Below, piece by piece: positions 1 to 64,000 of a stretch of DNA of 64,000 bases (its first letter is position 1; each line of letters starts with the position of its first letter). Location of the stretch: positions 2,977 through 66,976 of the forward strand of contig JAVHRB010000091.1 in NCBI GenBank assembly GCA_036171455.1, given 5' to 3'. The position numbers were made by a program, and so were the translations under genes. A model generated the notes under the pieces. The model did not search any database. It saw nothing but the letters and a program-made list of their open reading frames with translations, and was not told the DNA's origin. This DNA is from Patescibacteria group bacterium. Lineage in GTDB: Bacteria > Patescibacteriota > Gracilibacteria > BD1-5 > UBA2023.

Positions 1-400
1 CTCCGAAAATGCTTCAGCCTATTTCCATGACGGCCATTTCAGGCTCGTCGAAAATACGGAGAGACCTTTGGAGAATCGAGGAATCCCACAAGCCGTTCCA
101 CCTGTCGAAAAGCGCGCCTATTATAGCGAGAAGCGGCGGGAGACTGACGGAGTCCCCATTCCGTCATAACACGAATCAATCCAGCGGTATTCAAGCGACT
201 CAACACCGAGAATGCAGCCCCTTATAAAAAGCCTGGGCCTTGAATTCATTATCAAATTTGAGCGAACAGGTCGTATTAGCGAGGAATCATTCGAGATTCT
301 CCAAAACTTCCTTATTTTCCAAAAGTTCCTCGTATTTCGGAATGGAAGGATTGGATATCTTGAAATCCACACGGCTGGGATATTTCCATCATAGTGACAT
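1..400 (-). CDS. hypothetical protein (C-terminus beyond window edge)
   Basis: ATG at 400-398. Frame stays open to position 1 if the seven in-frame TGA are sense; no TAA/TAG. Same strand as hsdR and 91 nt downstream of it. No motif recognised. Confidence 0.4.
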
Positions 401-491
401 AATTTGTATAGATTAAAATAGTACCACCCTACTCAATTTCCTTTGTCGTAGCTGCACATTACCCCAGAAGTACATCTGTTCCAGTACTGAA

Positions 492-3491
492 TTACTTTCC
501 GGAGGCTTTCACCTGCCGATGTATGAACTCATACATCTTCCCGTTCACGAAATCCTTCAACTCGATGTTTTTGTCGATTTTTTGAAACAGGTCGAAATTG
601 CTCCGGAACATCGATACGAGCTCTTTCGTGAACAGTTCGTCGAATTTCACCCTCACTGCGTCCTCGCTCACGTTATTGTTCATGGCACCAACCAAGGCCT
701 CGTTTTTGAGAAGCCTGGCGCTCAGGGTATTGAGCATGATGCGGTCCTCTTCCGAGAACGTGGTCCCGAAGCGCTCGTTCACGTCCGAAAGGATTTTGGA
801 CAGCGATTCGGTGTCGTCCTCTTTTTCCCCGCGTCCGCCAGCTCCCATCGGGTCGAGCTTCCCGGTTTCGTTATCGAGAACGATTGACGTCTGCGAACGC
901 TTCGGGACTTTGATGCTCTCGAGGTTCACGAGGTCCAGGAGTTCGGTCGGAAGGGGGTTCGACGACATCGGCAACTTCTTTTTGTAAAACCTGAGGAACA
1001 TGTACATCGCTTCGAGGTCCGCGTCGGTGAAGTCGATGATTTGCGATACGAAGGCGTATTTCCGGACGTAATCGGAAATCTGGACCCGGCATTCGGCCTG
1101 TTCCTCGCTTTCGGTTTTTTCGTCTTCGTTGAGTTCTTTCCACCGCTTCATGAGGACGTCCAGGAACGAATTCAGTTCCGCCGGCGTTACCCCCCGGTGC
1201 CACATGTCCGCGAACTCGGCTATCTGCGGTTCTCCGAAAAGCTTGTGACCGAGGATGTCTCGCCGGAGGTCGTAGAGTATTCCCGGTTCGGTAGCTTCCG
1301 AAAGGACCGTGGTAGTGTAATACGGCTGGAACGCCTCCTTAATGTCCCCGGTTTCGTTCACGAAGTCCAGGACGAACGTCTCGCCCTTGTCCGGATGGGT
1401 CCGGTTGAGCCGGGAAAGCGTCTGTACCGCGTTCACACCGCCCAATTTTTTGTCCACCGCGGAAAATCCGAGGAGGGGTTGGTCAAATCAAGTCTGGTAC
1501 TTCTCTGCGACGATGAGAAATTTGCAATCGTCCTTCTTGAACTCTTCCTTGGTCTGGGATTCGGGTATGCCGTTCATGTTCGCTTCGGTGTATTCCATTC
1601 CACTGTCTTTCACCGTGCCAGAGAACGCCACGAGGGTCCTATGGGAGAGGCCCTGCTCCCGCAGGTATTTGTCGATGGCGATTTTGTACCGGACGGCATG
1701 GAGGCGGGATTTGGTAACCACCATGGCTTTCGCTTTGCCCCCGATTCCGCTTTTGACGTGCCTTTCGAAATAGTCGACGATGATTTGGGATTTCTTCCCG
1801 ATGGCGTGCTCACTCTTTTCCACGGCGTTGACCAGCACCCGGGTAGCGAGGCTCTTGGAATATTTCGGGTCGTTCTCCGCGGACTTGTGGAGGCTGAAGA
1901 ACATATCGTAGGTCGTATAGTTCTTGAGAACGTCAAGGATGAACCCCTCCTCGATGGCCTGCTTCATGGAATAGACCGAGAACGGCACGAAACTGCCGTC
2001 GGACCGCATTTGCCCGAAGAGTTCGAGGGTCTTCTGTTTCGGAGTGGCCGTGAATGCGAAATAGCTCACGTTGGGGTTTTTCCGGCTCCGGTTCTTCATC
2101 TGCTTCACGAGCCAGTCCTCCCCGTCCTCTTCGGGAAAGGCTGAGTCTGACCGGAAAGCGCGTTCGAGGACGGTCTCCTCGTCCTCCCCGCTTCCCGCCG
2201 ACAGCACGTCGTTGACCGCGCGACCGCTCTCGCCCGACTGGGAGGAATGGGCCTCATCGATAATTACGGCGAACTTCCGGCCCGGTATGGTTCCCATCTC
2301 GTCCGCGATGAACGGGAACTTCTGGAGGGTGGTAATTATGATTTTCTCGCCGTCCTGCAGGGCGGTCCTGAGTTCCGCGGAACCTTCGGTGATGGGCTTC
2401 ACCACGCCCCGGACCTGTTCGAACTGGGAAACCGTTTCCCGGAGCTGCTTGTCGAGCACCCGCCGGTCCGTAATGATGATAACGCTGTCGAACACCTTTC
2501 CGTTCGAGGCGTCGTGGAGGTCGGCGAGCCGGTGCGCCGTCCAAGCGATGGTGTTGGATTTTCCGGAGCCGGCGGAATGCTCTATGAGGTAGTTCCTTCC
2601 CGAGCCGTTTTCCTGCGCGTCGGCCACCAGCTTCCTCACCGCGTCGAGCTGGTGGTATCTGGGGAATACGAGCCGTTCCGTCTTTTCCTTCTTCCCTCCC
2701 TCGAGCGTTTTTTCCTCCTTCTGAAGGCATATGAAGCGTCCTATGAGCTCCAGAAGGGTGTCCGGCGTGAAAACGTCTTCCCACATGTAGGACGTCTTGT
2801 ATTTGCCCGCTATGGCGGAGTTACCAGCGGAGCCGTCGTTTCAGCGGTTGAACGGGAGGAAATAGGTTTTCTCCCCCTTGAGTTCGGTCGCCATGTACGC
2901 CTGTTCGGTGTCGATGGCGAAGTGGACGAGGCAGCGCTTGAAGGCGAGAAGCCGTTCCTTGGGGTCCCGGTCCGTTCGGTACTGCCGTATCCCGTGCTCG
3001 ACGGACTGCCCGGTTAGTTGGTTCTTGAGCTCCACCGTCGCGATGGGGAACCCGTTGAGGAACAGCACCATGTCGATGCTGTTCTCGTTCCTTCCGGAAT
3101 ATTTGAGCTGCCGGATAACGGAGAAAACGTTTCCGCGGTACAGTTCGAGATTCTCCGGGTTGAAATCCGTGTTCGGCTTGAAATGGGCGAACCGGAACAG
3201 GATGCCGTCCAGCGTGACGCCTTCCCTGAGGATTTCCAGGAGCCCGTACTTTTCGGTGACCCGGACGATTTCCGCGAGGAGTTTTTCCCTGGCCCGGTCG
3301 AGCCCGTGGAGCCCGATGAGCTTGTTCGACTGCTTCGGCTGGGTGGACGAAACGAAGCGCCAGAACATCTCCGGGTCCAGGCAGGTCTCCCGGTCGTAGT
3401 CCGAAGCGAGCCGCTTTAAGTAACCGGCTTGGGTCACGAGGAAATTTTCGATGAAGGCTTCGAATCCGATTTCTTTGGTATTGGTACTCAT
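492..3491 (-). CDS. hsdR: type I restriction enzyme R subunit, 999 aa
   Basis: ORF-track fragments 2841..3491, 1488..2786 and 492..1457 share one frame and are separated only by TGA (2841-2843, 1488-1490). Helicase motif I AGSGKS, motif II IIDEAHSSQ, KYQT-[TGA]-FDQPLL and VQTLSRLNR. TAA stop. Confidence 0.95.
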
Positions 3492-3500
3492 GGGAATTGG

Positions 3501-4675: not shown

Positions 4676-5953
4676 CTATTCAATCTTGGCAAAGTAATCC
4701 ATCATTTCCAGCGTTAGGTATTCAGGATTTTTCGTTTGGACCTCCCCAAGGAAAAATCGCATGCTTCAATCCGCTTGGCTGTCTCATTTGGTTTTTCTGA
4801 ATATCCTTTCCAAATCGTCGGCGTTGAGAACGTCATAGAGCACTACGAGCGTAATGAAGAAATCGTCGGAGTCGTTATAGCAATTAATCTCGAAATTATC
4901 TATCAGTTCGTTCACGAGCATCCTCTTGAGGAAAGCGTCCAAAGCTCAGAAAAATTCCTTATACCCAGGAATAGAGAGTATGTAATCCCTGTCGCGGAGT
5001 CATCTGCAGACAATCTTTCAATTTGCACCTTCTCAATACCGGATATATGGCAGTTTGGATTTCTTCGCCATGCAACGCTCAAGCCGGGTCTTCTGATATT
5101 CCAAGACGTCGTAAAGAAAATCGACTATGGTTTTGGTCGAATTGACCACCAGCTTCGCGTGATGCCTGCTCGGGGCGGTCTCGCGGGTATGGCTGTCGCT
5201 CATGGTATTCCGGACCGCGGCTATGCCGTTGACAATGGAAGTGATTCAGGAGGTGACCATTTTTAGGGCAGCGTCCGCCTTTGTGCCTTCCGACAGGTTC
5301 AACAAGGCCTTTATTTTTTTGTAATAATCCCCTAGGTCGCCGGGGGTCTCAATCTCCTTTCCCGTAATCTGCTTGTGCAAATCCTTGGCCAACACGTCTT
5401 CGAGCAGGGCTCGCGCGTTGGTAATGGCTCAGTCGTAATCTCACTCGGCAAGTTTCCTATCGCATTTTTCCAATTGCTCTTTGATGAAAGGGCGGGATAT
5501 TTTTCCGGAATTTTCGATTTCGATACGGTTTTCGTCGGTTTTTACCATCTTGAAACGCAGTTTCCTGCCCAAATTCTCCGGCATCATGGCAAAGCTGTCG
5601 TCTTTCAGGTAGTCGTTGACGAGTTCCAATAGGCCGTTTCGCTCCGTTTCGTTATCACGGACGAGGGGATGTAGCATCTCCGCGAGGAACTGGGCAAACG
5701 TTTCGTCGCTTCACTTCATCAAATCAAGCCGGGAATCGTCGAAAATCCAATGGTCAGGCCAATCGTTGTTATTGAACCTGTGCTGCCAGATATCCCCCTC
5801 CATGTCTTTGTAACGGCCATCGGTCGAAGGCAGGTCACCAAGGTTGAAAATGCGCTTCAGGAAAGAGGTCTCGTCAAGCCGTCAATGCCAGGCGATATTT
5901 TCGATGCGGAGCTCGTCGCAGATGTTCCTCCTCGTTTTTTCCGAAATCAGCAT
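4676..5953 (-). CDS. AbiJ-like protein with Abi_C (HEPN) domain, 425 aa
   Basis: ATG 5953-5951 (13 nt after the hsdS stop) to TAG 4678-4676. Includes fragment 5441..5677; eleven in-frame TGA. N-terminal AbiJ-NTD-like region (IAWH-G-RLDETSFLKRIF, DIWQH). Central helical domain with R-x6-H (AAVRNTMSDSH). Confidence 0.75.
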
Positions 5954-5966
5954 AAGCGTTTTATGG

Positions 5967-7187
5967 TTACGGTTTGATTTTCCCGCTCACCGCGTGCGAT
6001 ATGAGCGAAGTTTTGTATTCTTGGAGCAGTTCGATTGACTGTTCGATTTTAGATTTCATCGAATCGATGTAGGCGGTTTCCTTTTCGAGATAGTCGACGA
6101 TTTCCTTTTGTTCGGCAATCGGCGGTATGCCCATGGCGAGATTCCCGATAAATTCCCAATCAGCGCGAGGCATCTTGGTGCCAAGTGTCGAATTATTGAC
6201 CTGCGTGATGAAATCGGAAGATACGATTCTATAAAAAAGGTAATCCTGGGTTATCTCGCTGGAAGGACGCAGTACGAGGAACTCGCCGACGCACAATCCA
6301 CTGCATGCGGCTTTGTATGCTTTTGCGAGGTACGGGCGCAATTTTCCGAATAGAACATCCCCCTGCTCGAAAGAGTTCATATTGCTCTCGAAAGTCCTTT
6401 CCCCATCGATAGGAAGATATTTCCCTGTCCAGCTTTCGATATTTTCCATTGCCACGGAAAACAAGTCACCGGAAAATGTAGTTTTCTGGTTTGTATTCGG
6501 TGCGGCATATTTCAGCTTCTTCACTTCCCATTCTTTCGGAATCATGCCAATCCATTCAATCCCACTGTCTTTCATCTCTACATTCGGGTCTAACCCCTTG
6601 GTAATGGCGTTATTTATGAGTGCACTTCTGTGCTCCGAGAGAAGGTCGATTTGTTGCCTCTTTTTCGCAATTGACTCGTCCAGTAGAGCAGCTTTTTCGT
6701 CGAGATATGTAACAATCACAATTTGCTCTTCTAATTCTGGCGTCGGGAAAGAGATATTTGCTAGTATTCACTGGGTCATGCTCGGTATTGCCGACCCCGA
6801 CTGATGTTCACTGAAGTTAATTCCGAGACATAGGTAATAGAAAAATTTCGGATAAGTATTGCCGAATATCTTCGTGTAGAACATCGTGTCTACCGTCCAG
6901 AATGGTTCGGTAACGAAAAGCGGTTTGTCTATGGTCCCCTTCCTTCAAAGTAAAACCGAAGGTTTGTTGTAAACGAAAGCGTTTGCCCTCGCGAATTCGC
7001 CGCCCGAACCATAAACAGGATATTCGCCATCTTCGGCTTCGATATCCTTGTAATCGCTCCCATTGCACACCGAGGCCATGTATTTCAGTTTCTTAACTTC
7101 CCAACCATCGGGAATATTCCCAATCGCATTCGTGTTTGACGGCTTGTATTTCGGGTAACGGGGATGACATTTTTTAAACGTTATCAT
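5967..7187 (-). CDS. hsdS: type I R-M specificity subunit, 406 aa
   Basis: Fragments 6945..7316 and 5967..6719 are in one frame, joined across TGA 6945-6947 and 6768-6770. Start taken at ATG 7187-7185 (MITFKK). Two target-recognition halves, each followed by the conserved helix (PELEEQIVIVTYLDEK; IPPIAEQKEIVDYLEKE). Confidence 0.9.
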
Positions 7188-7312
7188 TGAATGTAAGAAA
7201 AAGTGCAGAAAACCAGAATCACATACGACAGCGTGAGGATTATCGGCCAGCCCCATGACGCGACCAGCTCGCCGCAGGCCTTTATCCATGCGGCTTTCGA
7301 TTGGAAAAAGGT

Positions 7313-8230: not shown

Positions 8231-10111
8231 TTATTCGACGTTGAAAATGGAGTCGTTCCAAATCCTTTCGCAAATCACCCGGACCAGTTCCGCTCTGGCG
8301 CGTATGGCGACCTTCCCATACGAACCGTAAGCCGTAAAGGCTAAATCCTCGGTATCGATAAGCTGCAGGAAAGCAGGATGCTTCTCATAACACTGGGAAT
8401 TGAGCGACCAAGCGAGGAGGTTCTGAGAGAGGTAGTGGCTAACTTTCGTCTCGTACGGGGCATCGCTGAAGCTCTGGTTATACCCCCGAGGGAGCAGCAG
8501 GAGGTCGCCCACGTTGTTCCTCCACTCCTGAAAGTCATGCTCGTCTTCGTATTCCGTCGCGTACCGCTCGTATTTGTCGGCGGTTATGTGCTCAATTTCA
8601 TACGGCTTTTTTATAGACAGTGACAAATACTGTTCCACGCTGCTCGGAATACCGGTTTTCTCTTCGATGTAATGGGTAATCCGGGCCAGGAGGAATTTCA
8701 TGGTATTGTAGTTCCTCCTTCCGTCCGAGAGCTTATATTGGATGATTCCGGTGAAATCCTCTCACATCTCGGCGATAAATTCCCGACACGCATCGGAAAG
8801 CTCCTCCAACGAGCAGTCCCGGACCCGTTTGGTGAGATTGAACATGGTATAGCTAATGGCGCTGCTTCAAAGGGAGCGGTTGTTCGTAAGGCGGAGCATG
8901 ATGAACATTTCCAGGAATTCGGAGATGAGCTTCAGCTTCTTATCGACGGTATCTTCATCATCCCCGTACTTTACCGCGGAAAGCATGATGACGTCCTGAT
9001 ACGGGAACGTATGGTAGTCGTTGTAGAACACGGACGGGTATTTTGTGTCGAGTACCGATTTCGCCCTTTGGATTTTCAGGTAGAGTCCCGAATAGAATCG
9101 GAACTGCTCGTCGATGAAGCGGAAATAGTCGTCGCTTCTCGCGAATCAGATATCGCTTTCCCCATTCTCTCTTACCCACTTGTGAAAAGCGGTCCCTATT
9201 CGTTCGTAGTCCTGGTTCATCGAACCTTGTTGCCGTTGGCGCAAGGTTTTCGCGTATTTAGCCCTGAGCCACTTCTTAAAAAATTCCTCGTCTTCCCTTT
9301 TCTCGATGGAAATGAGCTTTACTATTCGTTCCTTCCATAGGTCGTTCGCGGCTGCCCTTTTCTGTTCATCCCGTATGTTCGCCAACAGGTACCCCTTGAG
9401 CATGTCGGTCGCCGTCAGGCTTAGTCCACGGTCGTTCATAGTTTCGAATATGGTGTACGCGTCGTCGTCCGAATGGGTGGTAATCTCCACCATGTCGACG
9501 TTGCCGGTGAGCCAATCAACGAAAAACGGCAATATTTCTCACTTTTCTCAAATCAGGCTGTCCGGGAAGTTCTCGGCTATGTCATGGTACCGGTCGAGGA
9601 TGTTCGTTATCGATTGCGGCGCGTCGTCCGGCAAAACGACTTCCTCTTTTCCGGAAAACAGGCTTTCGATTACCGATTGCCGCTCCGGCGCGTCGATATT
9701 GAAAGATTTTTCGCCGTAGGCCTCCGAATATATCAGGGATTCTAGCGGGGTTATCGCGATGTCTCTTTTCGTGGCCAAATTCCTCAGGTAAATCAACAGG
9801 AGGGTTATCGAGGTAAGGCGTTGCTGGCCGTCTATGATGAATTTCTTGCCGTCTTTCACGCACACGATGAAAGAGCCGAGAAAATAGTGGGGGTAACTCT
9901 TGACGTGCGGGCGTCCGCGTTCGATGTCGACGACGTTCTCGAATTTTCCGGACAGGTCGCTCAGAAGGGCTTCTATGTCCACGGCACGCCACTTGTATTC
10001 CCGCTGGTAGAAGTCGATTCCGAACTTCTCGCCGGAGAGGATTTTCTTAATGGACAATGCACTGCCATCGATTGGCAGTACGCCGCCGTCCGTTCTGTTC
10101 GTTTCTCCCAT
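8231..10111 (-). CDS. DUF262 + DUF1524 (GmrSD-like) nuclease, 626 aa
   Basis: Fragments 9548..10111, 9146..9532 and 8231..8701 are in one frame, and the 8702-9145 gap is open apart from TGA. DUF262 motif IIDGQQRLTS. C-terminal His-Me/HNH-like region YEIEHITADK ... NVGDLLLLPRGYNQS. Confidence 0.9.
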
Positions 10112-10128: not shown

Positions 10129-12261
10129 TTACAACCGCTTCATCAGTTCGAGGAGTTCGTTCTCCACCGTTTCGATATCCGTCTCTATCGCTTCCAGGCT
10201 CCGCGGCGGTTCGTATTGGTAGAAATACCGGGTAAGCGGGAACTCATAGCCGACCTTCCCAACCTTCCCGTCTTTCGCGTCGCGCTTCATCTCGTCTATC
10301 CAAGCGTCCGGCACGAACGGTTTAACTTCCCGCTCGAAGTACGCGTTCACGTCTTCGTGATACGGGACGTTCTCGGTATCGCGGAGTTCGGAATCGGGTT
10401 CCGGGTTTCATTTCCCGTCGACGCATATGTCCGCCGATTCGTCCCGTTTTCACAGGTACGCCAAGAGTCGGTTTTTCATCGGTTTTCCATAAATGGTTCC
10501 AAGCATGCTCAGCGTAAGCGCATCGAACGTTTTTTCGAATTCGCCACGGTTCAAAAACACCTTTCATTCCAATTTTCATGCAATCCGGGTCAACGCCTCG
10601 TTCATTGCTATCGCAGCATGTCGCTCCATTACAAATTTCGTAGACATCGATTCAAGAACCGTTCACTTGCATTCTATTTCCTGATTCATCGCTAACCGAA
10701 GGTCGTTTTCCAATTCACTCGAAGCGCGGATACCGAGTCCGCTGAACAACAGAGCCTTGCCTTCTTCGCTGCTGAAATCGTATTTCAGCCTCAGCGGACG
10801 CTCTATAGTGATTTGCCGGTAGGCGAAGTCGGTCGTCTTGAAAATCTTGGAACAGTCGCTATCGCGGAAACCGCGGTACAGCGACAAAATGGTTTCGATG
10901 TCATTCCCGCCAATCTCGTGCCGCTTGTTTCCGAGGCTCTTCCGCATCTTCACGAAGGACTTACGGGCGTCGATGAGCTGGACGGTATTTTTCCGCTCCT
11001 CGGTTTTCCGGTTCGAGAGAATCCAGATATAGGTCGAAATCCCCGTATTGTAGAACAGCTGGTCTGGCAGGGCGATGATGGCTTCCAAATAATCGTTCTC
11101 GCATACCCACCGGCGTATCTCGCTCTCGCCGTCGCCCGCGTCCCCGGTGAACAGGGGAGAGCCGTTGAAGACGATTCCGATACGCGCTCCCCCCTCCTCC
11201 CGGTCGCGCATCTTGGAAACCATGTGCTGGAGGAACAGGAGCTGTCCGTCGGAACTCCGCGGCAACCCAGCTCAGAAACGCCCGGCATAGCCCCGCTCCG
11301 CTTCCGCTTCCACGGCTTCCTTGTCCTTCTTCCAATCCACTCAATAAGGGGGATTGGCAAGGATATAATCGAACTTGAGGTCAAGGAATTGGTCGGTCGA
11401 AAGCGTGCTGGCCACCGTGTGGTCTTTGTCTCCGCCCTTGATACGGTCTGCGTCTTCTCCCTTCATCAGCATGTCGGCCTTACAGATGGCATAGGTGACG
11501 GGGTTGAGTTCCTGTCCGTAGACGAATATGCTGGCCTTAGGGTTGATGTCCGAAAGTATGTGTTCCTTTCCTGCGGACAGCATACCGCCAGTTCACGCAC
11601 AACAGTCGTACATGGTCTTTATAACGTGTTCCCGCTTGAGCTCCTTGGCATCGGGCTCGAAAAGGACTTCCACTATGAGTTGGATTACTTCCCTCGGGGT
11701 GTAATGTTCCCCGGCGGTCTCGTTGGACTGCTCGGAAAACCGGCGGATGAGTTCCTCGAACACGTACCCCATCTCGTGGTTGGACACGGCGTCGGGATGG
11801 AGGTTTACCTTGTTGAACTCCTTGATTATGAGATAAAGCATGTTTCCGCCTTCCATCCGGGCGAGCTGTTTCTCGAATTCGAACTTCTCGAAAATCTGTT
11901 TCACGTTGTCGGAAAAACCGCCGATGAGGTTCCTGAGGTTCTTCGCCATGTCGCGCTGGTCGTCCAGGAGCTTGTGGAAATCGTAGGGCGAAACGTTGTA
12001 GAACCCGGTTCCGGCGATATCCTTGAGTATCATGCCCATGTCGGAAATCTGGCCGTCGTACTGGTTGAACGTGGAAAGTACTTCCTCCTTGGTGTCGGAA
12101 AGGACGCTGTCGAGGCGTTTCAGGAGCGTGAGCGGTAGGATTACGTCCTGGTATTCGTGCTGTTTCCAGCTTCAGCGGAGGAGTTCGGCGATGTTCCAAA
12201 TAAGCCCTGCTTTGGAAGCGGAGCCGGTATTGGTCGATGGGGTATTTTCTTTTGGTGCCAT
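10129..12261 (-). CDS. hsdM: type I R-M N6-adenine DNA methyltransferase subunit, 710 aa
   Basis: Fragments 11593..12039, 11341..11583, 10663..11265 and 10129..10350 are all in one frame. ATG 12261-12259. N-terminal LIWNIAELLR-[TGA]-SWKQHEYQDVILPLTLLKRLD, motif I DCCA-[TGA]-TGGML, motif IV NPPY-[TGA], C-terminal YFEREVKPFVPDAWID. Confidence 0.95.
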
Positions 12262-13507: not shown

Positions 13508-14956
13508 TTATTCCAAGAGAACTCAGGCACGATGGAGGAATTCCCAGAATTTACTCCGGCCATGGGTTACGAGGTAATCGTTCAGGTCGCTGACGGTGCC
13601 GCCCCATTCATCATCGTTCCCGCTGCCGAACCGAATGCGTTCGATGGGAACTTCCCGCGAGAGCTTCTCGAACAGGCTCTCTCCTGCCGTATCGGAATGC
13701 GGTACCATGGCGAACGTACAGCCGAGCCGGTTGAACTCCCCGAAGTCCTCGCAGGAGGAGCTCGCGGAAGCGACGCCGATAACGTACGGGGTGAACTGCC
13801 GGACGGAAAGGTAGTCCGTGAATCATTCGACGACCAATACTTTGCGCTGCACGGCACCGACTGCCCCTATTCCTGACGGGAAGTCGTGGAAGTACCCGTG
13901 CTGCGTGCCTCAGACAACAATCCTGTACCGATAGCCCTTGTCGACGCTGCCCGCCGCGCGGGTTTGGATACCCATGACTTCGTTCGACGACGAGTTCTTG
14001 ATGGCGAGTGCCAATCGGTCTTCCCCTGCGAACCGGAGTATGCCCCCGAGCGCATCTGGCGAGAGTTGCCGTTCCGCCGCGTACTCCGTCTGTGAGCTGG
14101 TCGGCATCGCCGGTTCGAGCGCATCCCATTTCTTCGCCTGCTCGGGATTTTTGGTTGGTCGTGCTTCTGCAAGCAGCGGTAGTGCTTGCACGGTAACCGC
14201 ATGCGCTGACGGGCCGGACGACCGGAAGTCATCGATGCGGAACCCGAATTCCCGCGAGGCGACCCCGATTATTTCAGCTCAGGTGGAAGCCTTGTACAAT
14301 CTCTTTATGAGGGCGACCGGCTGGCCGCAGAACCTTCGCTTCTCGGTGAAATCCCGGACGTAGTTGTCACGGACGTTTACAATGTGACCACGGGTCTTCT
14401 TACCGTTCTCATAGATGCCCAACACCCCTTTGTTCCCCGTTCTGAACGTCTGATATCCAAAGCGATTGAGTATGTCCATCACGGGAATCCTGTTGATTTC
14501 TTCAAACGCTTCCCTGTAATCTATAGTATAACTATAGTTCTTACTACTATTTAATTCCTTACTTGTATTGCTCACTTTTCCAGATTCGAGTTCCTCCCAT
14601 GTTTGGTCCGAACCGACGGTTTCCCGTTTATGGCAAACGGAATCCATCTCCTCCATTATTTCGGTTTTCATTCCCCCCTCTTTTTGCGCTTCCCGGCGGA
14701 GCGTGACGAGGGTCCCATCTTTCGACGTGGAGTAGTCGAGCCATCATTTTTCCTTCATTTTTCCGAAGAATCCCCGTATCCATTTTTCGGAACGTTTCCA
14801 GCGCAATTCAAAGAATCTCACGCTCCTGAGAAGCTGAGACTCCGAAAGGCGGATTTTCTTTCCTCGCTTTGTTATAACATAGGTCTTCCACGTGGCGAGG
14901 CAGTGGAGGTCAACCATTGCCTCGAGTTGACTGAACCTTACGGAATGTTCAAGCAT
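13508..14956 (-). CDS. TOPRIM-domain primase-like protein (mobile-element type), 482 aa
   Basis: Fragments 14744..14956, 14279..14671, 13910..14191 and 13523..13708 are in one frame. TOPRIM Glu motif KVLVVE-[TGA]-FTDYLS, acidic motif PHSDTAGE, SDLNDYL near the C-terminus. Alternative in-frame starts at 15025 and 14671. Confidence 0.8.
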
Positions 14957-15351
14957 GCTGAAACCTTTGCTGATGGTTACGAATCATCATGTAACTTGAT
15001 TGTCTTCTGGTAGAATCTGAAGCATTGCGAAAATTTATTGGTACGAGGGCATATTATTCGCTATAAATACAGCCGTCAAAAAATTGGAAGCCAGACAAAT
15101 CGGTATTTTTTTTGAAAAAAGTGAAAAGTATTACCGGAAAGTAAAAAACCCATATGAAAAGGGTATGTTTTCGTAGTCCGAAAAAATCGTTGTACAATTC
15201 GGATATTTATTTTCTATTTTTCTCCCAGAGACGAAGCCTGAAATCACAATCCAAACAGGAATGTTGAAAACTTGGAACTATTTTATTCGCTTGTCATTAT
15301 ACCGAACCGAAAATCGTTTTTGGATAGACGAGCATGCAAGGTGAAAAAACA

Positions 15352-39167: not shown

Positions 39168-39183
39168 GGGGAACCTATTCTCA

Positions 39184-39516: not shown

Positions 39517-39519
39517 ATC

Positions 39520-41812: not shown

Positions 41813-41932
41813 GTGCCTTTACTTCCTCCCTCCATGGCTTTAAATGGCGATTAAGCCCGATAAGCGGCGATACTCCGCTACAAGCGTTTAGTATGGTTCG
41901 AGCGATAAATTGTTCGGGGAGCCATAGCATAA

Positions 41933-47740: not shown

Positions 47741-47865
47741 TGCGTTTTGTTATGTGTCGAAACGCAAAACAAGAAAATATCACTTTCCGCTTAAAATAGC
47801 GGAAAGGAGCAGACAAAAAATGAAAAATACATATAATGCGTATGTATTTTTTAAGAACGTTTCAT

Positions 47866-48564
47866 ATGGGTCAATTTTTTGAAGCGGGAACATACACCAA
47901 AAACGAGCTTATGTGGCTCTCAAAGCAAAAAAAAGAATTCGCACTCAAACACCACCCAGATAGAGGTTGAAGCCAATGGTGTTTTGTTGCGATGATGAAA
48001 GAATATGAAACTATCAAAGAAGCCATTAAAAATCTCTGACAATACGAGCAAGTTTTACCAGCAAAGAATGGGAATTGAAGGTCTCGTTTTTATAGCGGAA
48101 CAAAAACCATTGAAGAAGAGATACGAGCTCAAAAGGAATACCTCAAAGAAAAAAGGCAAAGGGAACGTGCTGAAAGATACTCGGCAAAAAGGCTCATATC
48201 TTATATTTTAGACATTCTTTCAGGTTCAAAAGTCCAAACGATGCTCTTGGTGGCTTCTTTTCCATTCATATTCCGCTGGGGTCTTCCATATGGAATAGAG
48301 GGTATTTTGGTGCTTTTCAGTATTCATTTGATTGTTGCCTGCGTGCTTGGGAAAAATCTTTTGGCGTTTCTTTCCATAGTTATCTTTTCACTCATAGCGA
48401 AAAGCTACGAGCCAATTATTCCATTTGAAGTTTGGAACACCGTTTGAAACACGGTCAATTTTTTGATTTTCACACTCATCATCTCAACGATTGCCCGAGT
48501 GAAACCAAGAGAAGAACCTATGGACTGGGACGACTTATGAAACAGGGCAAAACAGTTCGTATAA
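47866..48564 (+). CDS. J-domain (DnaJ-like) membrane protein, 232 aa
   Basis: ATG 47866. Same frame as ORF 48241..48447. J-domain KHHPDRG-[TGA]. C-terminal half has about 4 hydrophobic helices. Confidence 0.7.
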
Positions 48565-48712: not shown

Positions 48713-50701
48713 ATGTCTCATCATGACTTCAAAAAATCACTTTTGGAATTACTAAAGGCAGATGAGCGACTTTGGCAAGATGGCGAATTCAATCAAACAC
48801 GCCTATTTGATTTGGTAGATAAACACGATGGTGTGTTATTAGGACTATTGCTTGGCAACGAAGAGCTCAAAGCGAAATTTTTTGTAAATGTAAATGAAAT
48901 TTACGTCTTCAAGGGGCAGGAATTCAAGTTCTTTTTGGACGAAAACAAACTTGATAACAGCTATACGCAATTTGAAAACGTCATAGGTCTGAAAATTGGC
49001 AAGAAAATGCTGAAAGACCGTGATGAGGTCGTATTAAATTTCCCATTCAAGGACTGTATTCTTCAATGAGGACAGAGCCGTGATGATGGTTTAGATATTT
49101 GATTTGAATACGACGAAGCGTCCAATGATTTCCAAGAAGTGGAAGCCAAACGGAAAGAAGTGTTCTTCAATGAGATACTTGCCAAAGACGAAATAGACCG
49201 ATTGGAGGCTAAAAAAGTGCTGAAAAATTGGAAACGATATTCAAAAGATGGTGAAGTCGCGGTATGAAAATTGAAGCGAGATAGCGATGGAACGATACAA
49301 GAAAACCTAATTATCAAGGGGAATAATCTTTTGGCACTCCATAGCCTCAAAAATGAGTTCGCAGGCAAGGTGAAACTCATCTACATAGACCCACCATACA
49401 ATACTGGTTCTGACAGCTTCAAGTATAATGATAACTTCAATCATAGCACTTGGCTGACTTTTATGAAAAATCGGCTGGAAGTGGCAAAAGAGTTATTGAG
49501 AGACGATGGAGTGATTTTCGTTCAGTGTGATGATAACGAGCAGGCTTATTTGAAAGTTCTAATGGACGAGGTCTTTTGAAGCTGAAATTTCATAGATACT
49601 TTCATATGGAAAAATACAGACAATGCCCCAACACTATCAAAAAAGGTAAGATGAGGGTGGGAATTTATTCATTGTTTTGAAAAAAGAATAGATTTATCTA
49701 AAGCTTATATTTGAAGGCAGAGCAATAATGACGATGCGCCACTATTAAATACCTGAAATTCACCGTCCATATTACGGTTCCCAGAATGAACCATTCACTT
49801 CAACATTAGTGATTGAGTTTATAAAAAATGAACTTATGACCGCATTGAATTATTAAATGACCTTATCGTTGTTAATAGTCTTAATAAAAATGCTATAGAA
49901 ATAAGATGAGAATTTAAGTGGAATAAAAAAATGCTGGACGCTGAAATTTCCAAAGAAACTTATTTTTTAGTAAAGACAGGAAAGTTTTCCATTAGATATC
50001 AAAGAAAGGACGCGTCAAACATTGCGCCAGAAAAATTTATTGACGTCCCCTATCTCAATAAGGCTGTCTGAATTGATACAAATGAAGACTCAAAGAAGGA
50101 AATAAGTGCTTTGGGAATTGATTTTCCATCTTTTCCGAAACCAGAAAGCCTCATTTTATTCCTGATAAGAACAATAACTACACAAGGAGATATTGTTCTT
50201 GATTATCATTTATGAAGTGGCACGACTGCCGCAGTAGCTCATAAAATGGGCCGACAATACATAGGAGTAGAGCAAATGGGGTATATTGAAACTATTGCCG
50301 TTGAAAGAATGAAAAAAGTGATTGAATGAGAGCAGGGCGGTATTAGTAAGACTGTAAATTGGCAAGGTGGCGGAGATTTTGTTTATTTTGAGCTTGCCGA
50401 ATGGAATGAAGAAGCAAAAAAGCACATTCAAAAAGCTGAAAGTATCGAAGAATTGGAGAATTTTTTTGAAGTTATGTATGAGCGATATTTCTTGAACTAC
50501 AACGTAAGGGTAAAGGACTTTAAGGAAAAAGTTCTTACAGATAACAAGTTCAGAGGGCTTCCATTGGAAAGACAGAAGGAAATGTTTGCGAGAATGCTGG
50601 ACCTGAACCAAATGTATGTGAATTTTACTGAACGCAATGATAAAAAGTTCGGTATTTCAAGTACTGATATCACTTTGAGTGAGGAATTTTATAAAAACTA
50701 A
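48713..50701 (+). CDS. mod: type III R-M DNA methyltransferase (Mod), 662 aa
   Basis: Fragments 48713..49069, 49271..49579 and 50453..50701 are in one frame. Motif IV IYIDPPYNTG, C-terminal AdoMet motif VLDYHL-[TGA]-SGTTAAVA. About 15 TGA. Confidence 0.92.
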
Positions 50702-50710: not shown

Positions 50711-52543
50711 ATGAGCGAGATACGAATTAATAGCATCAAGATTAAAAATTATCGTTCATTTTGAAATGAAGAGCAGATTATTGAGTTCCCAGATAAAGAC
50801 TATAAAAGACCCGTTGCGATTGTTTGATACAACAATGCGTGAAAGAGTAATTTAATGAATGCTATCTTGTATGGTATCGGTCAAGAATACGTATGAGATA
50901 AGGAATTTACTAAAACCGATTTATTCAAATTAGATTATCAAAACCTTCTTCGAATAACTACCAAATTAGAAGGTTCATTTTATGATTGCGAACCTTATTA
51001 CGACAAACAAACAAGAGGCACTCTTAATAAGAAATCGATTACTGGCGAGTATCAAATCAATACAAAACTTGAAGACGGAGAGCTTCAATGAAAAATGTCG
51101 CCTTCAATGTTTTGAATGAATAAGCACTATCAGATTTTTTATGTCAATTTTCATCAAATCAAAGACCAGATATCTACTCAAAAAACAAGTTGGGGAAACA
51201 TGAAGTCCTTTTTGGGGAAACATATAAATAAATTAATCGAAGATGATGCTATTATTAACGGGAGAAAACAGAGATTTAAGGAAGAAATCGGGGCAGCAAC
51301 AAAGAACGTCATTGAGTGAAATGCTGATGAAGACGAAGCCAAATCGAAATTGTTTCAGTTCATAGAAACGATTAAGAAGAACTACGAAACAAACTTGCGG
51401 AACAGCGCCTGCGTAGTCGATTTTTGATTGCCCGATTATGAAGATATTTTTCTTCAAATGTTTTTTAAGATTTGATTGAATTGAAACACGGACAACCTTG
51501 TTCCTATAAGCAATTTTTGAGACGGCTTTATATCAATGTTTGTCATGTCCGTAATTCAGGCCATTGCCGAAAGCAATAGCACTGACAAATGCTTGTTTTT
51601 ATTCGAAGAACCCGAGAGCTTCTTACACGAAAACCATCAAGAATATTTTTATAAGACGGTATTATGCTGATTGGCAGAGAAATGACACCAAGTGATATAC
51701 ACGACGCATTCGGACAAAATGATTGATATCTTTGATACCAAAGGTTTGATTAGGCTTGAAAATGACGATAGCACCTGAACGATTGTAAAATATAACAACA
51801 CCGAAGATTTCTCACCAATTTTGAGTATTCCACCAGACAGTGATGAAGATGCTGTTTCCGATGCGGAAAACGAAGTCTATAATCAATATATAAAAAGCAT
51901 TGAACCAAACCTGAATAAAATCTTATTCAGCAAAAAAGTCATATTGGTTGAATGACCTAATGACCTTATGGCGTATTCTTTCGCCATAAAGCAAAGAATT
52001 GAAAAACTCGAAGCGGAGAACACCAAGATTTCCGACAAGAAGAAGTATGCGGAAACCTTCCTGAATTTTCACAATATCGTCATTATTCCGCATCACTGAA
52101 AAGCAACGGCACTCTTGCTTATTCAATTGTGTAAGCATATAAAAGTCGATTATTTCGTTATTAACGATTTTGATTTCGAACCCAGCGAATTAAGCGTATC
52201 AACATTATCTTGAATTGACACGCCCGAAGCACTGAAGGAGCAAAACGCCTATATAAGTGCTGAAACGGGCAAAAAATGAATGATGACAGTGAATTTCAAC
52301 CTGATACGAGCGGCTTCATCTGAAAAAATTCATTTTAACGTTCCGAGATTTGAGGAAGCTATTTGATACTGAAGGAATGATAAAAATGCCGTGAGAATAT
52401 GGAAGCACCTTAACGGCATGTCTTCATTCGGCGAAGGCTTCTTTCCAAGAAAATTGGAAGATTTTCTACTCAATAGAATTTCGGAAGTTCAAACAATTTC
52501 AGAAAGCACAGATGAAATACAAATGACGAATACTCCTTTCTAA
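50711..52543 (+). CDS. OLD-family ATP-dependent endonuclease (ABC-type ATPase + TOPRIM), 610 aa
   Basis: ATG 50711, 9 nt after the mod stop. Walker A IV-[TGA]-YNNA-[TGA]-KSN, Walker B LFLFEEPESFLH, TOPRIM VILVE-[TGA]-PNDL and FVINDFD. TAA 52541-52543. Confidence 0.85.
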
Positions 52544-55273: not shown

Positions 55274-55277
55274 TATA

Positions 55278-55304: not shown

Positions 55305-55674
55305 CTTACCGTTAATCTTACAAGTATAGTCGAATGAATAAATCACTTTTAGTTTCTTACTCGTCGTCATCTTCTTCGTCCTCACATCTTTCCACGACCA
55401 CTTTGTAGGCGTTTTCTACGAATTCATAGGCTTCGGAGAAGTGTTCCCGTATGTATTCCACGAGCGGCAAAAACGTTTCAATATGTTTAATCTTTCTTTG
55501 ATTGGGGGAGCCATTCAACAATTCAAGCAGAAATCTCAGACTTGCTCTGGGATTTTTGTTTTGTCATTATCAAAGTAAACAAGCCTGTATTTCACTTACC
55601 TAGGAATTTATGGTGCAGTTGTTGTATTTTTTGCAACAACTGCTTTTTATACAATTACCTTATAAAATAAAGTC

Positions 55675-56878: not shown

Positions 56879-58771
56879 TTACATCTGATGAACCAATTCA
56901 ATACCGATCAGATTTGCTCCTTTTTTCATAATGTTTTGAACTTCCTTTAAAATGGATATACGCAAATTTTTCATTGCGGGTTCTGATTTTAAAATGTTCA
57001 CTCTTCCGTAGTAAGTATTGAAAGATTGCGACAATTCAAAAAGGTATTTGGCCAAAGTATTAGGTGACAAGTTTTTATAGGCATCTTCCACTGCCTGATA
57101 ATACTCCGCAGCTTTTTTAATGAGCATATAATCTTCATTATCCAGTTCGGAACTGACTTCTGATTCCTTAACAGATTCATTCTTCAAAAGCACCCCACAA
57201 AGCCTCGCATAAGAGTACATGAGATAGGCCCCAGTTTCTCACTCCATGTCGAGTACCGTATTGATATCAAAGACGATATCCTTGTTGATATCGAATTTCG
57301 TCAGAAAGTACCTGAAAGAACCAATTGCGAGTTTTTCAGATACTTCTTCTACCCATGTTTCATCAGTTTCGGGATTCCTATCTCTTGTTTCCTTCATAGC
57401 CTTTTTTTTCATGATATCCAAGGTCTCATCTATAGTTACAAACCAACCTTTTCGACTAGAAAACGGAAGTCTGGTTTTCGATTTCTCGTCATCATTCAGT
57501 TTGAATCCGAAATCCTCAAGTGTTGAGGGGCTAATATAGACGACTCCGTATGCCAAATGTCGATATTTTCTTTCCCCTTGGGTCTTTTCAATGATTTCAA
57601 GAGCTGCTGAAACTACTGATTGCGGGGTGGATTGGCGATTATCGATAACTGAAATTGCCTGGTCATAGTGGGAAAATTCCTTTTGCAATCGGATTTCTTC
57701 TTCATTTGAATGAAGCGTTCCCATAGTAGTGTACACCACCCCCTCTCCGGGCTGATCACAAAATTTTTCAAATCCAAAACTTTTTTCCAGAAGACCGAGC
57801 TTCCACATCGCATAGGCAATATCCTTGCCGACATAGGTAGCAACTCCATCGCTCTTTATGAGTATTTGGTATTGTTTTTCAACATTCTGAAACTCTTTTA
57901 CTTGACTCAGATCAATTACCCAGCAATTTTTTGCCTCTCCTTCGGTAGCATAAGAAATAACCCCCAGTTTTTTCAGTTTTTCGATGGCTTCTGCAAAAAA
58001 ATCAAGATGAAGAATATCCGTTTCCCAATTGATAAGATTAAAGTGAGCATTCATTCTCCAACAACTCTCGAACTGAGCAATGGTACATTTTCTCGTGTAT
58101 TCTTTGAGGAGTGCATGGATTTTTTCATCTGATCCCTCTTCTATGGTTTTCAAGGTTTTTGAAAGTATGCTTTTAAATTCTGGTTCCTCGTCCTTGGCTC
58201 GCATTTCTGTATATATTTCTCAGCAGTAGTGATCGAATTTCTTGTCGGTCTCCAGTTTATACCCATAGTGAGTATGCCCCACCATATTATAGCCGACGTT
58301 CACTCCACTGTCATCACCGTAATTGACCGCATGTACTTTATCTCCGTGCTCCCGAATGATTCTGATAAGCGAATCTCCAATACAGACATTTCTCGCCTGT
58401 CAGATATGAAGTGGTTTGTTCGGATTGGCGTTCATGTATTCTACGAGCACTTTTTTTCAGGAAGATTCCCCCACCCTCTTTCATTCCTCAAAAAGCATGC
58501 CCATAAAGGCATTACGATTTACAAATGCGTTCAAATACGCTCCTACGCTCTCGAATCTCGAAAATACGTTAGAGCTCAGAGTTTTTGCCAATTTTTCCGC
58601 TATTTCAGAAGGATTTTTCCCGAGTTTTTTCGACAAATGGAAACATGGGAGAGAGTAATCTCAAAGCTCTGGTTTTTTTGGTATTTCGATAAAACTACTC
58701 AGGTCCATTTCCAATCAAAGCTCCGTCTCTATGAGATCAGACAACACTTCTTTGTACTGATTTAAACGCAT
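56879..58771 (-). CDS. argS: arginine--tRNA ligase, 630 aa
   Basis: Fragments 57239..58204 and 56879..57220 are in one frame, with the N-terminal part open through TGA to ATG 58771. HIGH-type motif NPNKPLHI-[TGA]-QARN. DALR anticodon-binding C-terminus ending ...ELVHQM. Confidence 0.95.
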
Positions 58772-63500: not shown

Positions 63501-63836
63501 GAAACCCTGCAGATTATCCATGATATGACAAAAAGCTGGCCAAGCGAGCAAATTACCCTCAAAAACATTAGTGTCCAATGCAACGGGGATGTTACTTCAC
63601 CAGTACTGCGTTTGGTAAATATCGTTTCCTATTGCAAACGACACCATATAAAATATACGATAGAACAAATCCGGGATCGGGGAGACGATCATCTCCTGCG
63701 AATTGCTAACCTGTTAGGATTTATTATTCAGGGGTACATATATCACAAACCAAGTCCCGTTACGGTTGACGATACGGGGGTGGCGTTGTGAATTGCAAAG
63801 AAAACCCTATTCCATGTCGATATTCTACTGAGTTAA
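60507..63836 (+). CDS. large protein with C-terminal degenerate EAL domain, 1109 aa
   Basis: Fragments 60507..60689, 60708..61109, 61200..62834, 62844..63140 and 63237..63791 are in one frame, joined by five TGA. EAL-like blocks EILES, ALDDFRGT, IKFD, TIEQIRD, IIQGYIYHKP. Confidence 0.85.
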
Positions 63837-63872
63837 TCGAGAACTGGATGAAATGTCCACGAGGATTCTCGT

Positions 63873-64000
63873 ATGGTTTTTAACCTCACGGAAGAGAATT
63901 TCTTGATAGAATCCCGGGACCCGGATACAGCCATGCGAAAGCTGGGAACCATTCACCCGGCCATGATGGAGAAAGATATCTCCATCGACCTGGATAGCAT
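63873..64000 (+). CDS. possible 5-prime partial CDS
   Basis: ATG 63873, open to the window end (MVFNLTEENFLIESRDPDTAMRKLGTIHPAMMEKD...). The DNA becomes visibly GC-rich again here. Confidence 0.3.
   Translation, partial: MVFNLTEENFLIESRDPDTAMRKLGTIHPAMMEKDISIDLDS

What the first reader, a model, noticed from the sequence alone, without database searches (positions are those of the whole stretch)
1..64000. TGA encodes glycine throughout (translation table 25), so the standard-code ORF track is misleading
Nearly every long gene appears in the ORF track as 2-10 same-frame pieces separated only by TGA. The joined frames end only at TAA or TAG. The TGA codons sit on invariant glycines of textbook motifs: hsdM NPPY-G (11341-11343) and CCA-G-TGG (11593-11595); hsdR YQT-G-FDQPLL (1488-1490); OLD Walker A with both glycines as TGA (50825-50827, 50840-50842); ArgRS PLHI-G-Q (58400-58402); TOPRIM VVE-G-FTD (13823-13825); J-domain HPDRG-G (47968-47970). 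There is also an internal control. Paralogs A and B carry TGA (38676-38678, 39412-39414) exactly where paralog C has GGT (40126-40128). Table 25 is known only from Gracilibacteria and Absconditabacteria (SR1), which constrains the host lineage.
Basis: partly seen in the sequence, partly recalled or inferred. Interest (0 to 1): 0.8.

Follow-up and report, generated by a model that had tools for sequence, protein, structure and literature searches.

The report
TGA read as glycine throughout
Every gene in this 64-kb stretch uses the usual stop codon TGA as a glycine codon (genetic code 25), a known oddity of Gracilibacteria and SR1-type bacteria, so the region must be translated with that code to be annotated correctly.

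Summary
With TGA read as sense, the window resolves into 38 long genes. Of these, 36 carry in-frame TGA (222 codons in 17,009), none carries in-frame TAA or TAG, and all end at TAA or TAG. All 11 cited coordinates are correct.

TGA sits on glycine columns. These include ArgRS HIGH, hsdM motif I and NPPY-G, hsdR TGFD and the OLD Walker A. Standard-code archaeal ArgRS genes have GGN there, and 120 hsdM homologues have Gly in 110-120 of 120 at five TGA columns. In Pfam scoring of 27 TGA positions, Gly beats nine other residues by at least 33 bits, and Trp is worst. The rule holds in all three compositional parts: the 50% GC left region, a 13.6-kb inserted island and the 39% GC right end.

CGA and CGG remain arginine. 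This differs from 53 of 54 recoded ArgRS relatives, which use CGA/CGG at Trp columns, so this is plain table 25.

ArgRS is at most 52% identical to anything known and branches outside all recoded relatives. The parent genome could not be reached, so tRNA-Gly(UCA) and loss of RF2 are untested. Two motif labels (TOPRIM, J-domain) were not verified. This is a known code in a new, divergent member.

The parts
1..64000 (.). Whole window: TGA is a sense (Gly) codon. 38 delimited genes, 222 in-frame TGA, terminators only TAA (24) or TAG (14).
492..3491 (-). hsdR (type I restriction subunit), 2 in-frame TGA. The TGA at 1488-1490 lies in YQT-G-FDQPLL.
   Evidence: Pfam SWI2_SNF2, HSDR_N, ResIII and T1R_D3; coordinates
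4676..5953 (-). AbiJ-like abortive-infection gene, 11 in-frame TGA.
   Evidence: AbiJ_NTD3 149.8 (G) / 144.7 (X) / 141.3 (W) bits; Abi_C 54.8 / 52.7 / 51.0
5967..7289 (-). hsdS specificity subunit, 2 in-frame TGA.
   Evidence: Pfam Methylase_S
8231..10111 (-). GmrSD-family restriction endonuclease, 5 in-frame TGA.
   Evidence: GmrSD_N 109.7 / 108.5 / 107.4 bits for G / X / W
10129..12261 (-). hsdM, 9 in-frame TGA, including motif I CCA-G-TGG (11593-11595) and NPPY-G (11341-11343).
   Evidence: 120 homologues: Gly 119, 120, 120, 119 and 110 of 120 at five TGA columns; solved structures show G at motif I in 3/3; N6_Mtase 203.0 / 198.1 / 194.7
13508..15025 (-). The family assignment is only weakly supported.
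   Evidence: No Pfam, PHROGs or PDB hit; TIGR01391 dnaG positions 256-359, 14 bits, E=0.017
38400..40230 (+). Three small paralogous genes. TGA at 38676-38678 (A) and 39412-39414 (B) aligns with GGT at 40126-40128 (C).
41916..41925 (+). Left copy of the 10-bp direct repeat GGGGAGCCAT (attachment-site core of the inserted island).
   Evidence: empty-site contigs L005 and L086
41926..55514 (.). 13.6-kb inserted island, GC about 37%, with the highest TGA use in the window (235 per 10,000 codons). It holds two large serine recombinases, small unknown genes, and type III Mod - OLD - type III Res.
   Evidence: The island is absent from Logan contigs of two other samples, which join 41925 directly to 55498; codon counts
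41888..43390 (-). Large serine recombinase 1, 12 in-frame TGA.
   Evidence: Pfam Resolvase + Recombinase
43360..44883 (-). Large serine recombinase 2, 13 in-frame TGA.
   Evidence: Pfam Resolvase + Recombinase
47836..48564 (+). Not verified.
   Evidence: No Pfam, PDB or NCBIfam DnaJ match
48713..50701 (+). Type III methyltransferase (Mod), 15 in-frame TGA.
   Evidence: PADLOC MTase_III 694 bits over residues 6-660; N6_N4_Mtase 145.9 / 136.3 / 124.2 for G / X / W
50711..52543 (+). OLD-family ATPase-nuclease, 20 in-frame TGA. Both Walker A glycines are TGA (50825-50827, 50840-50842).
   Evidence: AAA_15 75.0 / 48.4 / 52.2, AAA_21 52 / 33.6 / 25.8 and OLD TOPRIM 37.8 / 25.9 / 23.2 for G / X / W; PADLOC Old 116 bits
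52550..55273 (+). Type III restriction subunit (Res), 14 in-frame TGA.
   Evidence: PADLOC REase_III 380 bits over residues 21-899
55505..55514 (+). Right copy of the 10-bp direct repeat GGGGAGCCAT.
56879..58771 (-). Arginyl-tRNA synthetase, the only housekeeping gene, 7 in-frame TGA including HIGH (58400-58402). It has CGA at invariant Arg columns and TGG at all six conserved Trp columns.

Best explanation
The DNA comes from a bacterium, and from mobile elements resident in it, that translates UGA as glycine (NCBI translation table 25).

Shown here: UGA occurs in frame in almost every gene. It falls on glycine positions of conserved families, and it is never needed as a terminator, because all genes end in UAA or UAG. 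The rule holds in all three compositionally distinct parts of the window. All other codons tested keep their standard meaning; in particular CGA and CGG are still arginine.

Inferred from the described members of this code: a tRNA-Gly with anticodon UCA reads UGA, release factor 2 has been lost, and RF1 terminates at UAA and UAG.

The organism is a divergent relative of Gracilibacteria and Absconditabacteria (SR1). On its one housekeeping gene it branches outside all recoded genomes sampled.
For: - **Frame statistics:** 222 in-frame TGA against no in-frame TAA or TAG in 17,009 codons. The off-frame TAA+TAG rate is 0.020 per codon.
- **Sequencing error excluded:** independent Logan assemblies of other samples are 99.8-100% identical over the same genes.
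- GGN alone is 3.9% in the low-GC part and rises to 5.7% with TGA. TGG stays at 0.8%, so TGA as Trp would give 2.5% Trp.
- **Residue identity, Pfam sum over 27 TGA positions:** G 252.8, A 219.7, S 219.3, P 215.2, C 212.8, D 212.7, N 208.8, R 208.3, K 206.1, W 194.7 bits.
- **Left region:** G > X > W in 5 of 5 informative domains.
- **hsdM:** five TGA columns are Gly in 110-120 of 120 homologues.
- **ArgRS:** four TGA columns are G in solved structures. They are GGN in 15-21 of 21 standard-code archaeal genes, and only GGN or TGA (plus three Ala codons at column 511) in 59 bacterial relatives.
- **Internal paralogue control:** TGA, TGA and GGT align.
- **CGA/CGG = Arg:** R beats W in hsdR (95.9 vs 84.2; 61.2 vs 46.9; 57.0 vs 41.4), hsdM (203.0 vs 190.3) and ArgRS (62.1 vs 55.4). 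CGA sits at ArgRS columns that are Arg in 114 and 120 of 120 homologues.
- **Lineage:** the nearest ArgRS genes are from Absconditabacteria/SR1/Gracilibacteria-labelled genomes. Nine of these carry a 74-nt tRNA(UCA) with G1-C72, C2-G71, G3-C70 and U73 just upstream of ArgRS. The literature restricts UGA->Gly to these groups (PMC8629427, PMC10746230).
Against: - The window holds no tRNA gene or Rfam hit of any kind and no release-factor gene was identified among the annotated genes. The decoding machinery of this particular genome is therefore unseen.
- Some TGA codons fall on variable columns where homologues mostly have other residues, for example ArgRS positions 19, 97 and 105 and hsdM 562.
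- One TGA in a signal-peptide region aligns with Trp in a 29%-identical paralogue.
- The window has only one housekeeping gene and is otherwise defence and mobile-element DNA, so the host assignment rests on ArgRS alone, at 52% identity or less.
Confidence: 0.95

Rival explanations
1. TGA encodes tryptophan (table 4), as in Mycoplasma, Spiroplasma and some insect endosymbionts.
For: TGA is clearly a sense codon. Some database homologues show W at the same columns. One TGA aligns with W in a distant paralogue.
Against: - Trp is the worst of ten residues tested (194.7 vs 252.8 bits).
- No solved-structure homologue has W at any TGA position.
- Standard-code archaeal ArgRS genes have GGN there.
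- The W residues in database relatives sit on the invariant HIGH glycine. They match in-frame TGA in those relatives' DNA, so they are table-4 mistranslations.
- Trp content would be 2.5%.
Confidence: 0.01
2. The standard code applies, and the in-frame TGAs are pseudogene lesions, programmed readthrough, selenocysteine or assembly errors.
For: Public gene calls on this DNA used table 11 and report short fragments.
Against: - Only TGA interrupts frames, 222 times; TAA and TAG never do.
- The interruptions fall on conserved Gly, not Cys.
- Full-length profile matches span up to 15 TGAs.
- The sequence is reproduced at 99.8-100% identity in independent assemblies.
- A rate of 1.3% of codons is far above any selenocysteine use.
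Confidence: 0.01
3. The genome uses the extended Absconditabacteria code: UGA = Gly and also CGA/CGG = Trp.
For: 53 of 54 recoded ArgRS relatives put CGA/CGG at conserved Trp columns and never at conserved Arg columns, as reported by Shulgina and Eddy (PMC8629427).
Against: - All six conserved Trp columns of ArgRS are TGG in this window, and CGA sits on invariant Arg columns 191 and 440.
- Replacing CGA/CGG by W lowers every Pfam score tested, by 1 to 16 bits.
- CGG is the commonest Arg codon in the left region, at 197 per 10,000 codons against 85 for TGG.
Confidence: 0.03
4. The recoding belongs to a mobile element or phage that brings its own suppressor tRNA into a standard-code host, and not to the host chromosome.
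For: The window is almost entirely defence and mobile DNA. It holds type I and III restriction-modification systems, AbiJ, GmrSD, OLD, three recombinases and a Bro-N protein. It includes a demonstrably mobile 13.6-kb island. Alternatively coded phages of standard-code hosts exist (cited in PMC10746230).
Against: - No tRNA gene is present in 64 kb, and there are no phage structural hits.
- ArgRS uses TGA in the same way and groups with chromosomal ArgRS genes of recoded bacteria.
- Known alternatively coded phages reassign TGA to Trp or TAG to Gln (recalled from the phage-recoding literature, not checked here), not TGA to Gly.
- Prophages of these bacteria are reported to share code 25 (PMC10746230).
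Confidence: 0.03

Closest known systems
NCBI translation table 25 (Candidate Division SR1 / Gracilibacteria code; Campbell et al. 2013 and Rinke et al. 2013, as cited in PMC8629427)
   Same: UGA is a glycine codon, UAA and UAG are the only terminators, and the other codons tested are standard. The nearest ArgRS relatives belong to these groups.
   Different: The organism matches no catalogued genome: an exact 61-mer is absent from three collections, and the best ArgRS hit is 52% identical. Part of the window is unusually GC-rich (50%, GC3 up to 0.78) for this clade.
Extended Absconditabacteria code (UGA->Gly plus CGA/CGG->Trp; Shulgina and Eddy 2021, PMC8629427)
   Same: UGA->Gly. The ArgRS family is shared.
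   Different: CGA and CGG are arginine here. 53 of 54 recoded relatives retrieved show the CGA/CGG-at-Trp signature, and this window does not.
Translation table 4 (Mycoplasmatales, Entomoplasmatales and some endosymbionts; UGA->Trp)
   Same: UGA is sense, and RF2-independent termination is implied.
   Different: The residue is Gly, not Trp. Trp scores worst of ten residues.
Code-25 prophages and mobile elements of Gracilibacteria and Absconditabacteria (PMC10746230)
   Same: Integrated elements dense in in-frame TGA. The 13.6-kb serine-recombinase island has the highest TGA density in the window.
   Different: No phage structural genes were found. The island carries defence genes (type III restriction-modification, OLD) rather than a virion module.

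Membership tests
Translation table 25 (UGA = Gly) | In-frame UGA inside bona fide protein-coding genes | tested here: met
   222 in-frame TGA in 36 of 38 genes. Profile matches span them.
Translation table 25 (UGA = Gly) | UGA positions correspond to glycine in homologues from standard-code organisms | tested here: met
   - Gly is the best of ten residues, by 33 bits.
- ArgRS columns are GGN in 15-21 of 21 archaeal genes.
- hsdM columns are Gly in 110-120 of 120 homologues.
- Solved-structure alignments agree.
Translation table 25 (UGA = Gly) | Genes terminate only at UAA or UAG | tested here: met
   24 TAA and 14 TAG. Full-length PADLOC matches end near these stops. The ORFs were delimited by TAA/TAG, so this is partly by construction.
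Translation table 25 (UGA = Gly) | Genome encodes a tRNA(UCA) with glycine identity elements (G1:C72, C2:G71, G3:C70, U73) | not testable with these tools
   The window has no tRNA or Rfam hit. The parent genome is absent from the searchable DNA collections. The tRNA was seen in 9 relatives next to ArgRS.
Translation table 25 (UGA = Gly) | Release factor 2 (prfB) absent | not testable with these tools
   Only 64 kb plus a few short Logan contigs of this organism are reachable.
Translation table 25 (UGA = Gly) | Organism belongs to the Gracilibacteria / Absconditabacteria clade | tested here: inconclusive
   The nearest ArgRS genes carry those labels but are only 44-52% identical. In a neighbour-joining tree the window is sister to the clade holding all 54 recoded relatives in 95 of 100 bootstraps. 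This rests on a single gene.
Extended Absconditabacteria code (CGA/CGG = Trp) | CGA/CGG occupy conserved Trp columns and avoid conserved Arg columns | tested here: not met
   The window has TGG at 6 of 6 Trp columns and CGA at Arg columns 191 and 440. Arg beats Trp in every Pfam comparison.
Translation table 4 (UGA = Trp) | UGA positions correspond to tryptophan in homologues | tested here: not met
   W gives the lowest score of ten residues. No W occurs at TGA columns in solved structures or in standard-code homologues.

The most novel reading that the evidence does not exclude
The window comes from a lineage that branches below all currently catalogued UGA->Gly bacteria and preserves the intermediate state of their code evolution: UGA is already glycine, but CGA and CGG are still arginine. 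This would show that the stop-codon capture came before the Arg->Trp reassignments. It would also show that code-25 mobile DNA of very different base composition (50% versus 37% GC) circulates within this code-isolated group.
Probability: 0.3. Interest if true: 0.5.

Novelty: new member of a known kind. Interest (0 to 1): 0.3.

Why it matters
**Annotation.** Any table-11 or table-4 annotation of this DNA is wrong. Table 11 shatters 38 genes into about 260 fragments, as the public calls on the same contigs show. Table 4 puts Trp on catalytic glycines, and the same error is visible in many database relatives.

**Biology.** The code is already known, so the finding adds a member rather than a principle. 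Two points have modest wider value.
- This genome keeps CGA/CGG = Arg while nearly all its recoded ArgRS relatives do not, and it branches outside them. That bears on the order of codon reassignments in this clade.
- Defence islands and a site-specifically inserted element all obey the host's code. This fits the idea that an altered code channels horizontal transfer among like-coded genomes.

Tried and rejected
- **Parent genome, DNA search.** An exact 61-mer from the ArgRS gene was not found in genome contigs, viral contigs or metagenome contigs.
- **Parent genome, protein look-ups.** Look-ups of table-11 fragments near the right end and in the island found nothing. Look-ups that did succeed reached only short Logan contigs with no tRNA.
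- **Sample origin.** The run accession of the samples is not mentioned in the paper library.
- **Left region as phage or plasmid.** Megablast of 16-40.9 kb against the phage and plasmid collections gave no match. PHROGs gave no hit for ten unknown proteins. I therefore dropped the idea that the GC-rich left region is a recognisable phage or plasmid.
- **RNA genes.** Rfam at gathering thresholds gave nothing.
- **TOPRIM and J-domain labels.** Pfam, PHROGs, PDB and NCBIfam gave at best a 14-bit DnaG hit for the first and nothing for the second. I did not run structure prediction on them.
- **Chimeric assembly.** I considered and rejected an assembly chimera at the 41.9-kb composition break. Two independent contigs join the left region directly to the right region, with the island cleanly excised at a 10-bp repeat.
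Full report
**What the sequence shows.** The window has two composition regimes. Positions 1 to about 41.9 kb are near 50% GC, and the rest is near 38%. No tRNA or Rfam family is present. Reading TGA as sense and only TAA/TAG as stops joins the fragments of the standard-code ORF map into long frames with normal coding periodicity: purine-rich first position and low GC at the second.

I delimited 38 genes covering 79.5% of the window. Of these, 36 contain in-frame TGA, 222 in total, and the terminators are 24 TAA and 14 TAG. Across 17,009 codons there is no in-frame TAA or TAG, although the two off-frames carry them at 0.020 per codon. In-frame TGA is present at 0.013 per codon. Under table 11 the genes break into 260 pieces with a median of 36 aa.

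**Not an artefact.** The left 13.5 kb is 100% identical to a 44.9-kb Logan contig from run SRR25490533. Other parts recur at 99.8-100% identity in contigs from at least five more runs. The gene calls stored with those contigs were made with table 11 and show hsdM, hsdR and GmrSD each in three fragments.

**Which amino acid.** Five independent lines agree on glycine.

- *Solved structures.* With TGA masked as X, ArgRS X at the HIGH motif and at positions 37 and 510 is G in three of three structures. Position 183 is G, G, E. hsdM motif I is G in three of three. No position aligns to W.
- *Pfam scores.* For OLD, G / X / W give AAA_15 75.0 / 48.4 / 52.2, AAA_21 52.0 / 33.6 / 25.8 and OLD-TOPRIM 37.8 / 25.9 / 23.2. 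For Mod, N6_N4_Mtase gives 145.9 / 136.3 / 124.2.
- *Ten-residue test.* A chimera holding 27 TGA positions gives summed bits of G 252.8, A 219.7, S 219.3, P 215.2, C 212.8, D 212.7, N 208.8, R 208.3, K 206.1 and W 194.7.
- *Codon-level comparison of ArgRS with 80 loci from species-representative genomes.* At the window's four conserved TGA columns, 21 standard-code archaeal genes have GGN in 21, 21, 20 and 15 cases. The 59 bacterial relatives have only GGN or TGA, plus three Ala codons at one column. In the protein database the same columns read G or W. The W residues are relatives' TGA codons translated with table 4.
- *Paralogue control.* The three-paralogue alignment holds, with TGA / TGA / GGT in one column.

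The codon budget agrees. In the low-GC part GGN is only 3.9% of codons, and TGA (1.75%) is the commonest 'glycine' codon. TGG is 0.8%.

**Does it hold 'throughout'?** The GC-rich left region has a different codon usage: GC3 of 0.6-0.78, and CGG as the main Arg codon. It could in principle be foreign. It uses TGA the same way. G > X > W holds in all five informative domains: AbiJ_NTD3 149.8 / 144.7 / 141.3, Abi_C 54.8 / 52.7 / 51.0, N6_Mtase 203.0 / 198.1 / 194.7, HsdM_N 81.9 / 79.7 / 76.2 and GmrSD_N 109.7 / 108.5 / 107.4. In 120 hsdM homologues of 57-84% identity, many from standard-code phyla, five of the nine TGA columns are Gly in 119, 120, 120, 119 and 110 sequences. The other four columns are variable or gapped. 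The claim therefore holds for the left region, the inserted island and the right end.

**Points of the finding that did not verify.** The protein at 13508-15034 gives no Pfam, PHROGs or PDB match. It has only a 14-bit (E = 0.017) match to the TOPRIM part of the DnaG model. The 'J-domain' protein at 47800-48564 gives no DnaJ match anywhere. The TGA codons are there, but the motif labels are unproven. NPPY-G is invariant only among closer hsdM homologues, and distant solved structures have S or N there. One TGA in a signal-peptide region aligns with Trp in a 29%-identical paralogue. Several TGAs lie on variable columns.

**Is it plain table 25?** Shulgina and Eddy reported that Absconditabacteria, and some Gracilibacteria, also read CGA/CGG as Trp (PMC8629427). 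I tested this.

At six conserved Trp columns of ArgRS, which are TGG in most archaeal genes and in 21 of 21 at one column, 53 of 54 recoded relatives use CGA or CGG at one or more columns. None uses them at eleven conserved Arg columns. The window has TGG at all six Trp columns and CGA at two columns that are Arg in 114 and 120 of 120 homologues.

Substituting W for CGA/CGG lowers every Pfam score tested: hsdR 95.9 to 84.2, 61.2 to 46.9 and 57.0 to 41.4; hsdM 203.0 to 190.3; ArgRS 62.1 to 55.4; Mod 145.9 to 141.6; OLD 75.0 to 73.8. CGA and CGG are therefore arginine here, and the code is table 25 without the extension.

**Whose DNA is it?** ArgRS is the only housekeeping gene. Its best hit among 5.8 billion protein clusters is 52% identical. 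Named hits are Absconditabacteria, SR1 and Gracilibacteria, plus a few genomes labelled Woesearchaeota. In species-representative genomes the nearest are 44-51% identical.

Nine of those relatives, including the complete SR1 genome RAAC1_SR1_1, carry a 74-nt tRNA with anticodon UCA 1.3-1.7 kb upstream of ArgRS. It has G1-C72, C2-G71, G3-C70 and U73, the glycine identity set used in PMC8629427. That synteny is absent from the window.

In a neighbour-joining ArgRS tree rooted on the archaeal homologues, the window is sister to the clade holding all 54 recoded relatives in 95 of 100 bootstraps. This is one gene and a simple method. It suggests a deep-branching member of the recoded group or a sister to it.

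The parent genome is not in the genome, viral or metagenome DNA collections, and only short contigs of it are reachable. The tRNA-Gly(UCA) and prfB tests therefore could not be run.

**Mechanism.** Shown: UGA is decoded as a sense codon at glycine positions, and UAA and UAG terminate every gene. Inferred from the described members of this code (PMC8629427, PMC10746230): a dedicated tRNA-Gly(UCA) reads UGA, RF2 is lost, and RF1 alone terminates.

**Context noticed on the way.**

- *Left region.* It is a defence island holding a type I restriction-modification system, DUF3800, AbiJ and GmrSD. These are followed by about 20 kb of orphan, mostly secreted proteins, a transglutaminase-like protein, DUF6232 and a short tyrosine recombinase.
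- *Inserted island.* Positions 41,926-55,514 form a 13.6-kb element flanked by the direct repeat GGGGAGCCAT, which occurs only at these two places. Contigs from two other samples join 41,925 directly to 55,498 with a single copy of the repeat. The element carries two large serine recombinases and an abutting type III Mod - OLD - type III Res block. It has the highest TGA density in the window.

**Verdict.** The finding is correct and practically important for annotation. It describes a genetic code known since 2013. Its added value is a new, divergent carrier that keeps CGA/CGG as arginine.

Noticed in passing
window 41916-55514 (repeats at 41916-41925 and 55505-55514); L005 and L086: A 13.6-kb island is flanked by the 10-bp direct repeat GGGGAGCCAT. 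It holds two large serine recombinases, small unknown genes, and type III Mod, OLD and type III Res. Logan contigs from two other samples (SRR25490534, SRR25490524) lack it and join 41925 to 55498 with one repeat copy. This is a site-specific insertion that is polymorphic in the population.
   Followed up: yes
window 1-41900 versus 41900-64000: There is a sharp composition break. The left 42 kb is about 50% GC, with GC3 up to 0.78 and CGG as the main Arg codon (197 per 10,000). The rest is 35-40% GC. Both parts use TGA = Gly, which suggests DNA exchanged between code-25 genomes of different base composition. No match was found in the phage or plasmid collections, and there were no PHROG hits.
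   Followed up: partly
L006-L085 (ArgRS loci of relatives); proteins P0001-P0120: In 53 of 54 TGA-recoded relatives, ArgRS has CGA/CGG at conserved Trp columns and never at conserved Arg columns. Public protein records of these genes therefore carry R where W is meant. Many also carry W where G is meant, from table-4 translation of TGA.
   Followed up: yes
L007, L008, L009, L013, L014, L017, L028, L032, L035 (about 1.3-1.7 kb upstream of ArgRS): A nearly invariant 74-nt tRNA(UCA) with glycine identity elements lies in a conserved Leu-Glu-Arg-Ala-Tyr-UCA tRNA cluster next to ArgRS in one group of relatives. ARAGORN labels it 'SeC'. The window's ArgRS has no such neighbour.
   Followed up: partly
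window 48713-55273: An OLD-family ATPase-nuclease gene sits exactly between the type III mod and res genes. The reading frames abut at 50701/50702 and 52543/52544, as if the three form one operon. I did not check whether this arrangement is known.
   Followed up: no
L001 13492-16442 (beyond the window's left end): The 44.9-kb Logan contig that matches the left region extends 2.95 kb past window position 1 and encodes a resolvase-like fragment there. If colinear with the window, its other end would fall at about window 41.94 kb, next to the island junction. The GC-rich region may itself be bounded by recombinases.
   Followed up: no
window 12701-13471 and 32416-33147 (both minus strand): Two secreted proteins of unknown family are paralogues (29% identity, E = 3e-27), 19 kb apart in the left region. 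The three small paralogues at 38.4-40.2 kb add to a pattern of local gene-family expansion.
   Followed up: partly
L006, L012, L023, L031, L072: Five close ArgRS relatives have no in-frame TGA, so they use the standard code. Three are labelled Woesearchaeota and two Paceibacteria. Three of them nest inside the recoded clade in the neighbour-joining tree. This suggests either transfer of this ArgRS type or mislabelled bins.
   Followed up: no
window 55675-56562 (minus) and 40509-41090 (minus): A Bro-N domain protein lies beside the island's insertion site. A GP30.3/NADAR-like protein flanks the other side. Both are phage-associated families sitting next to the chromosomal ArgRS gene.
   Followed up: no
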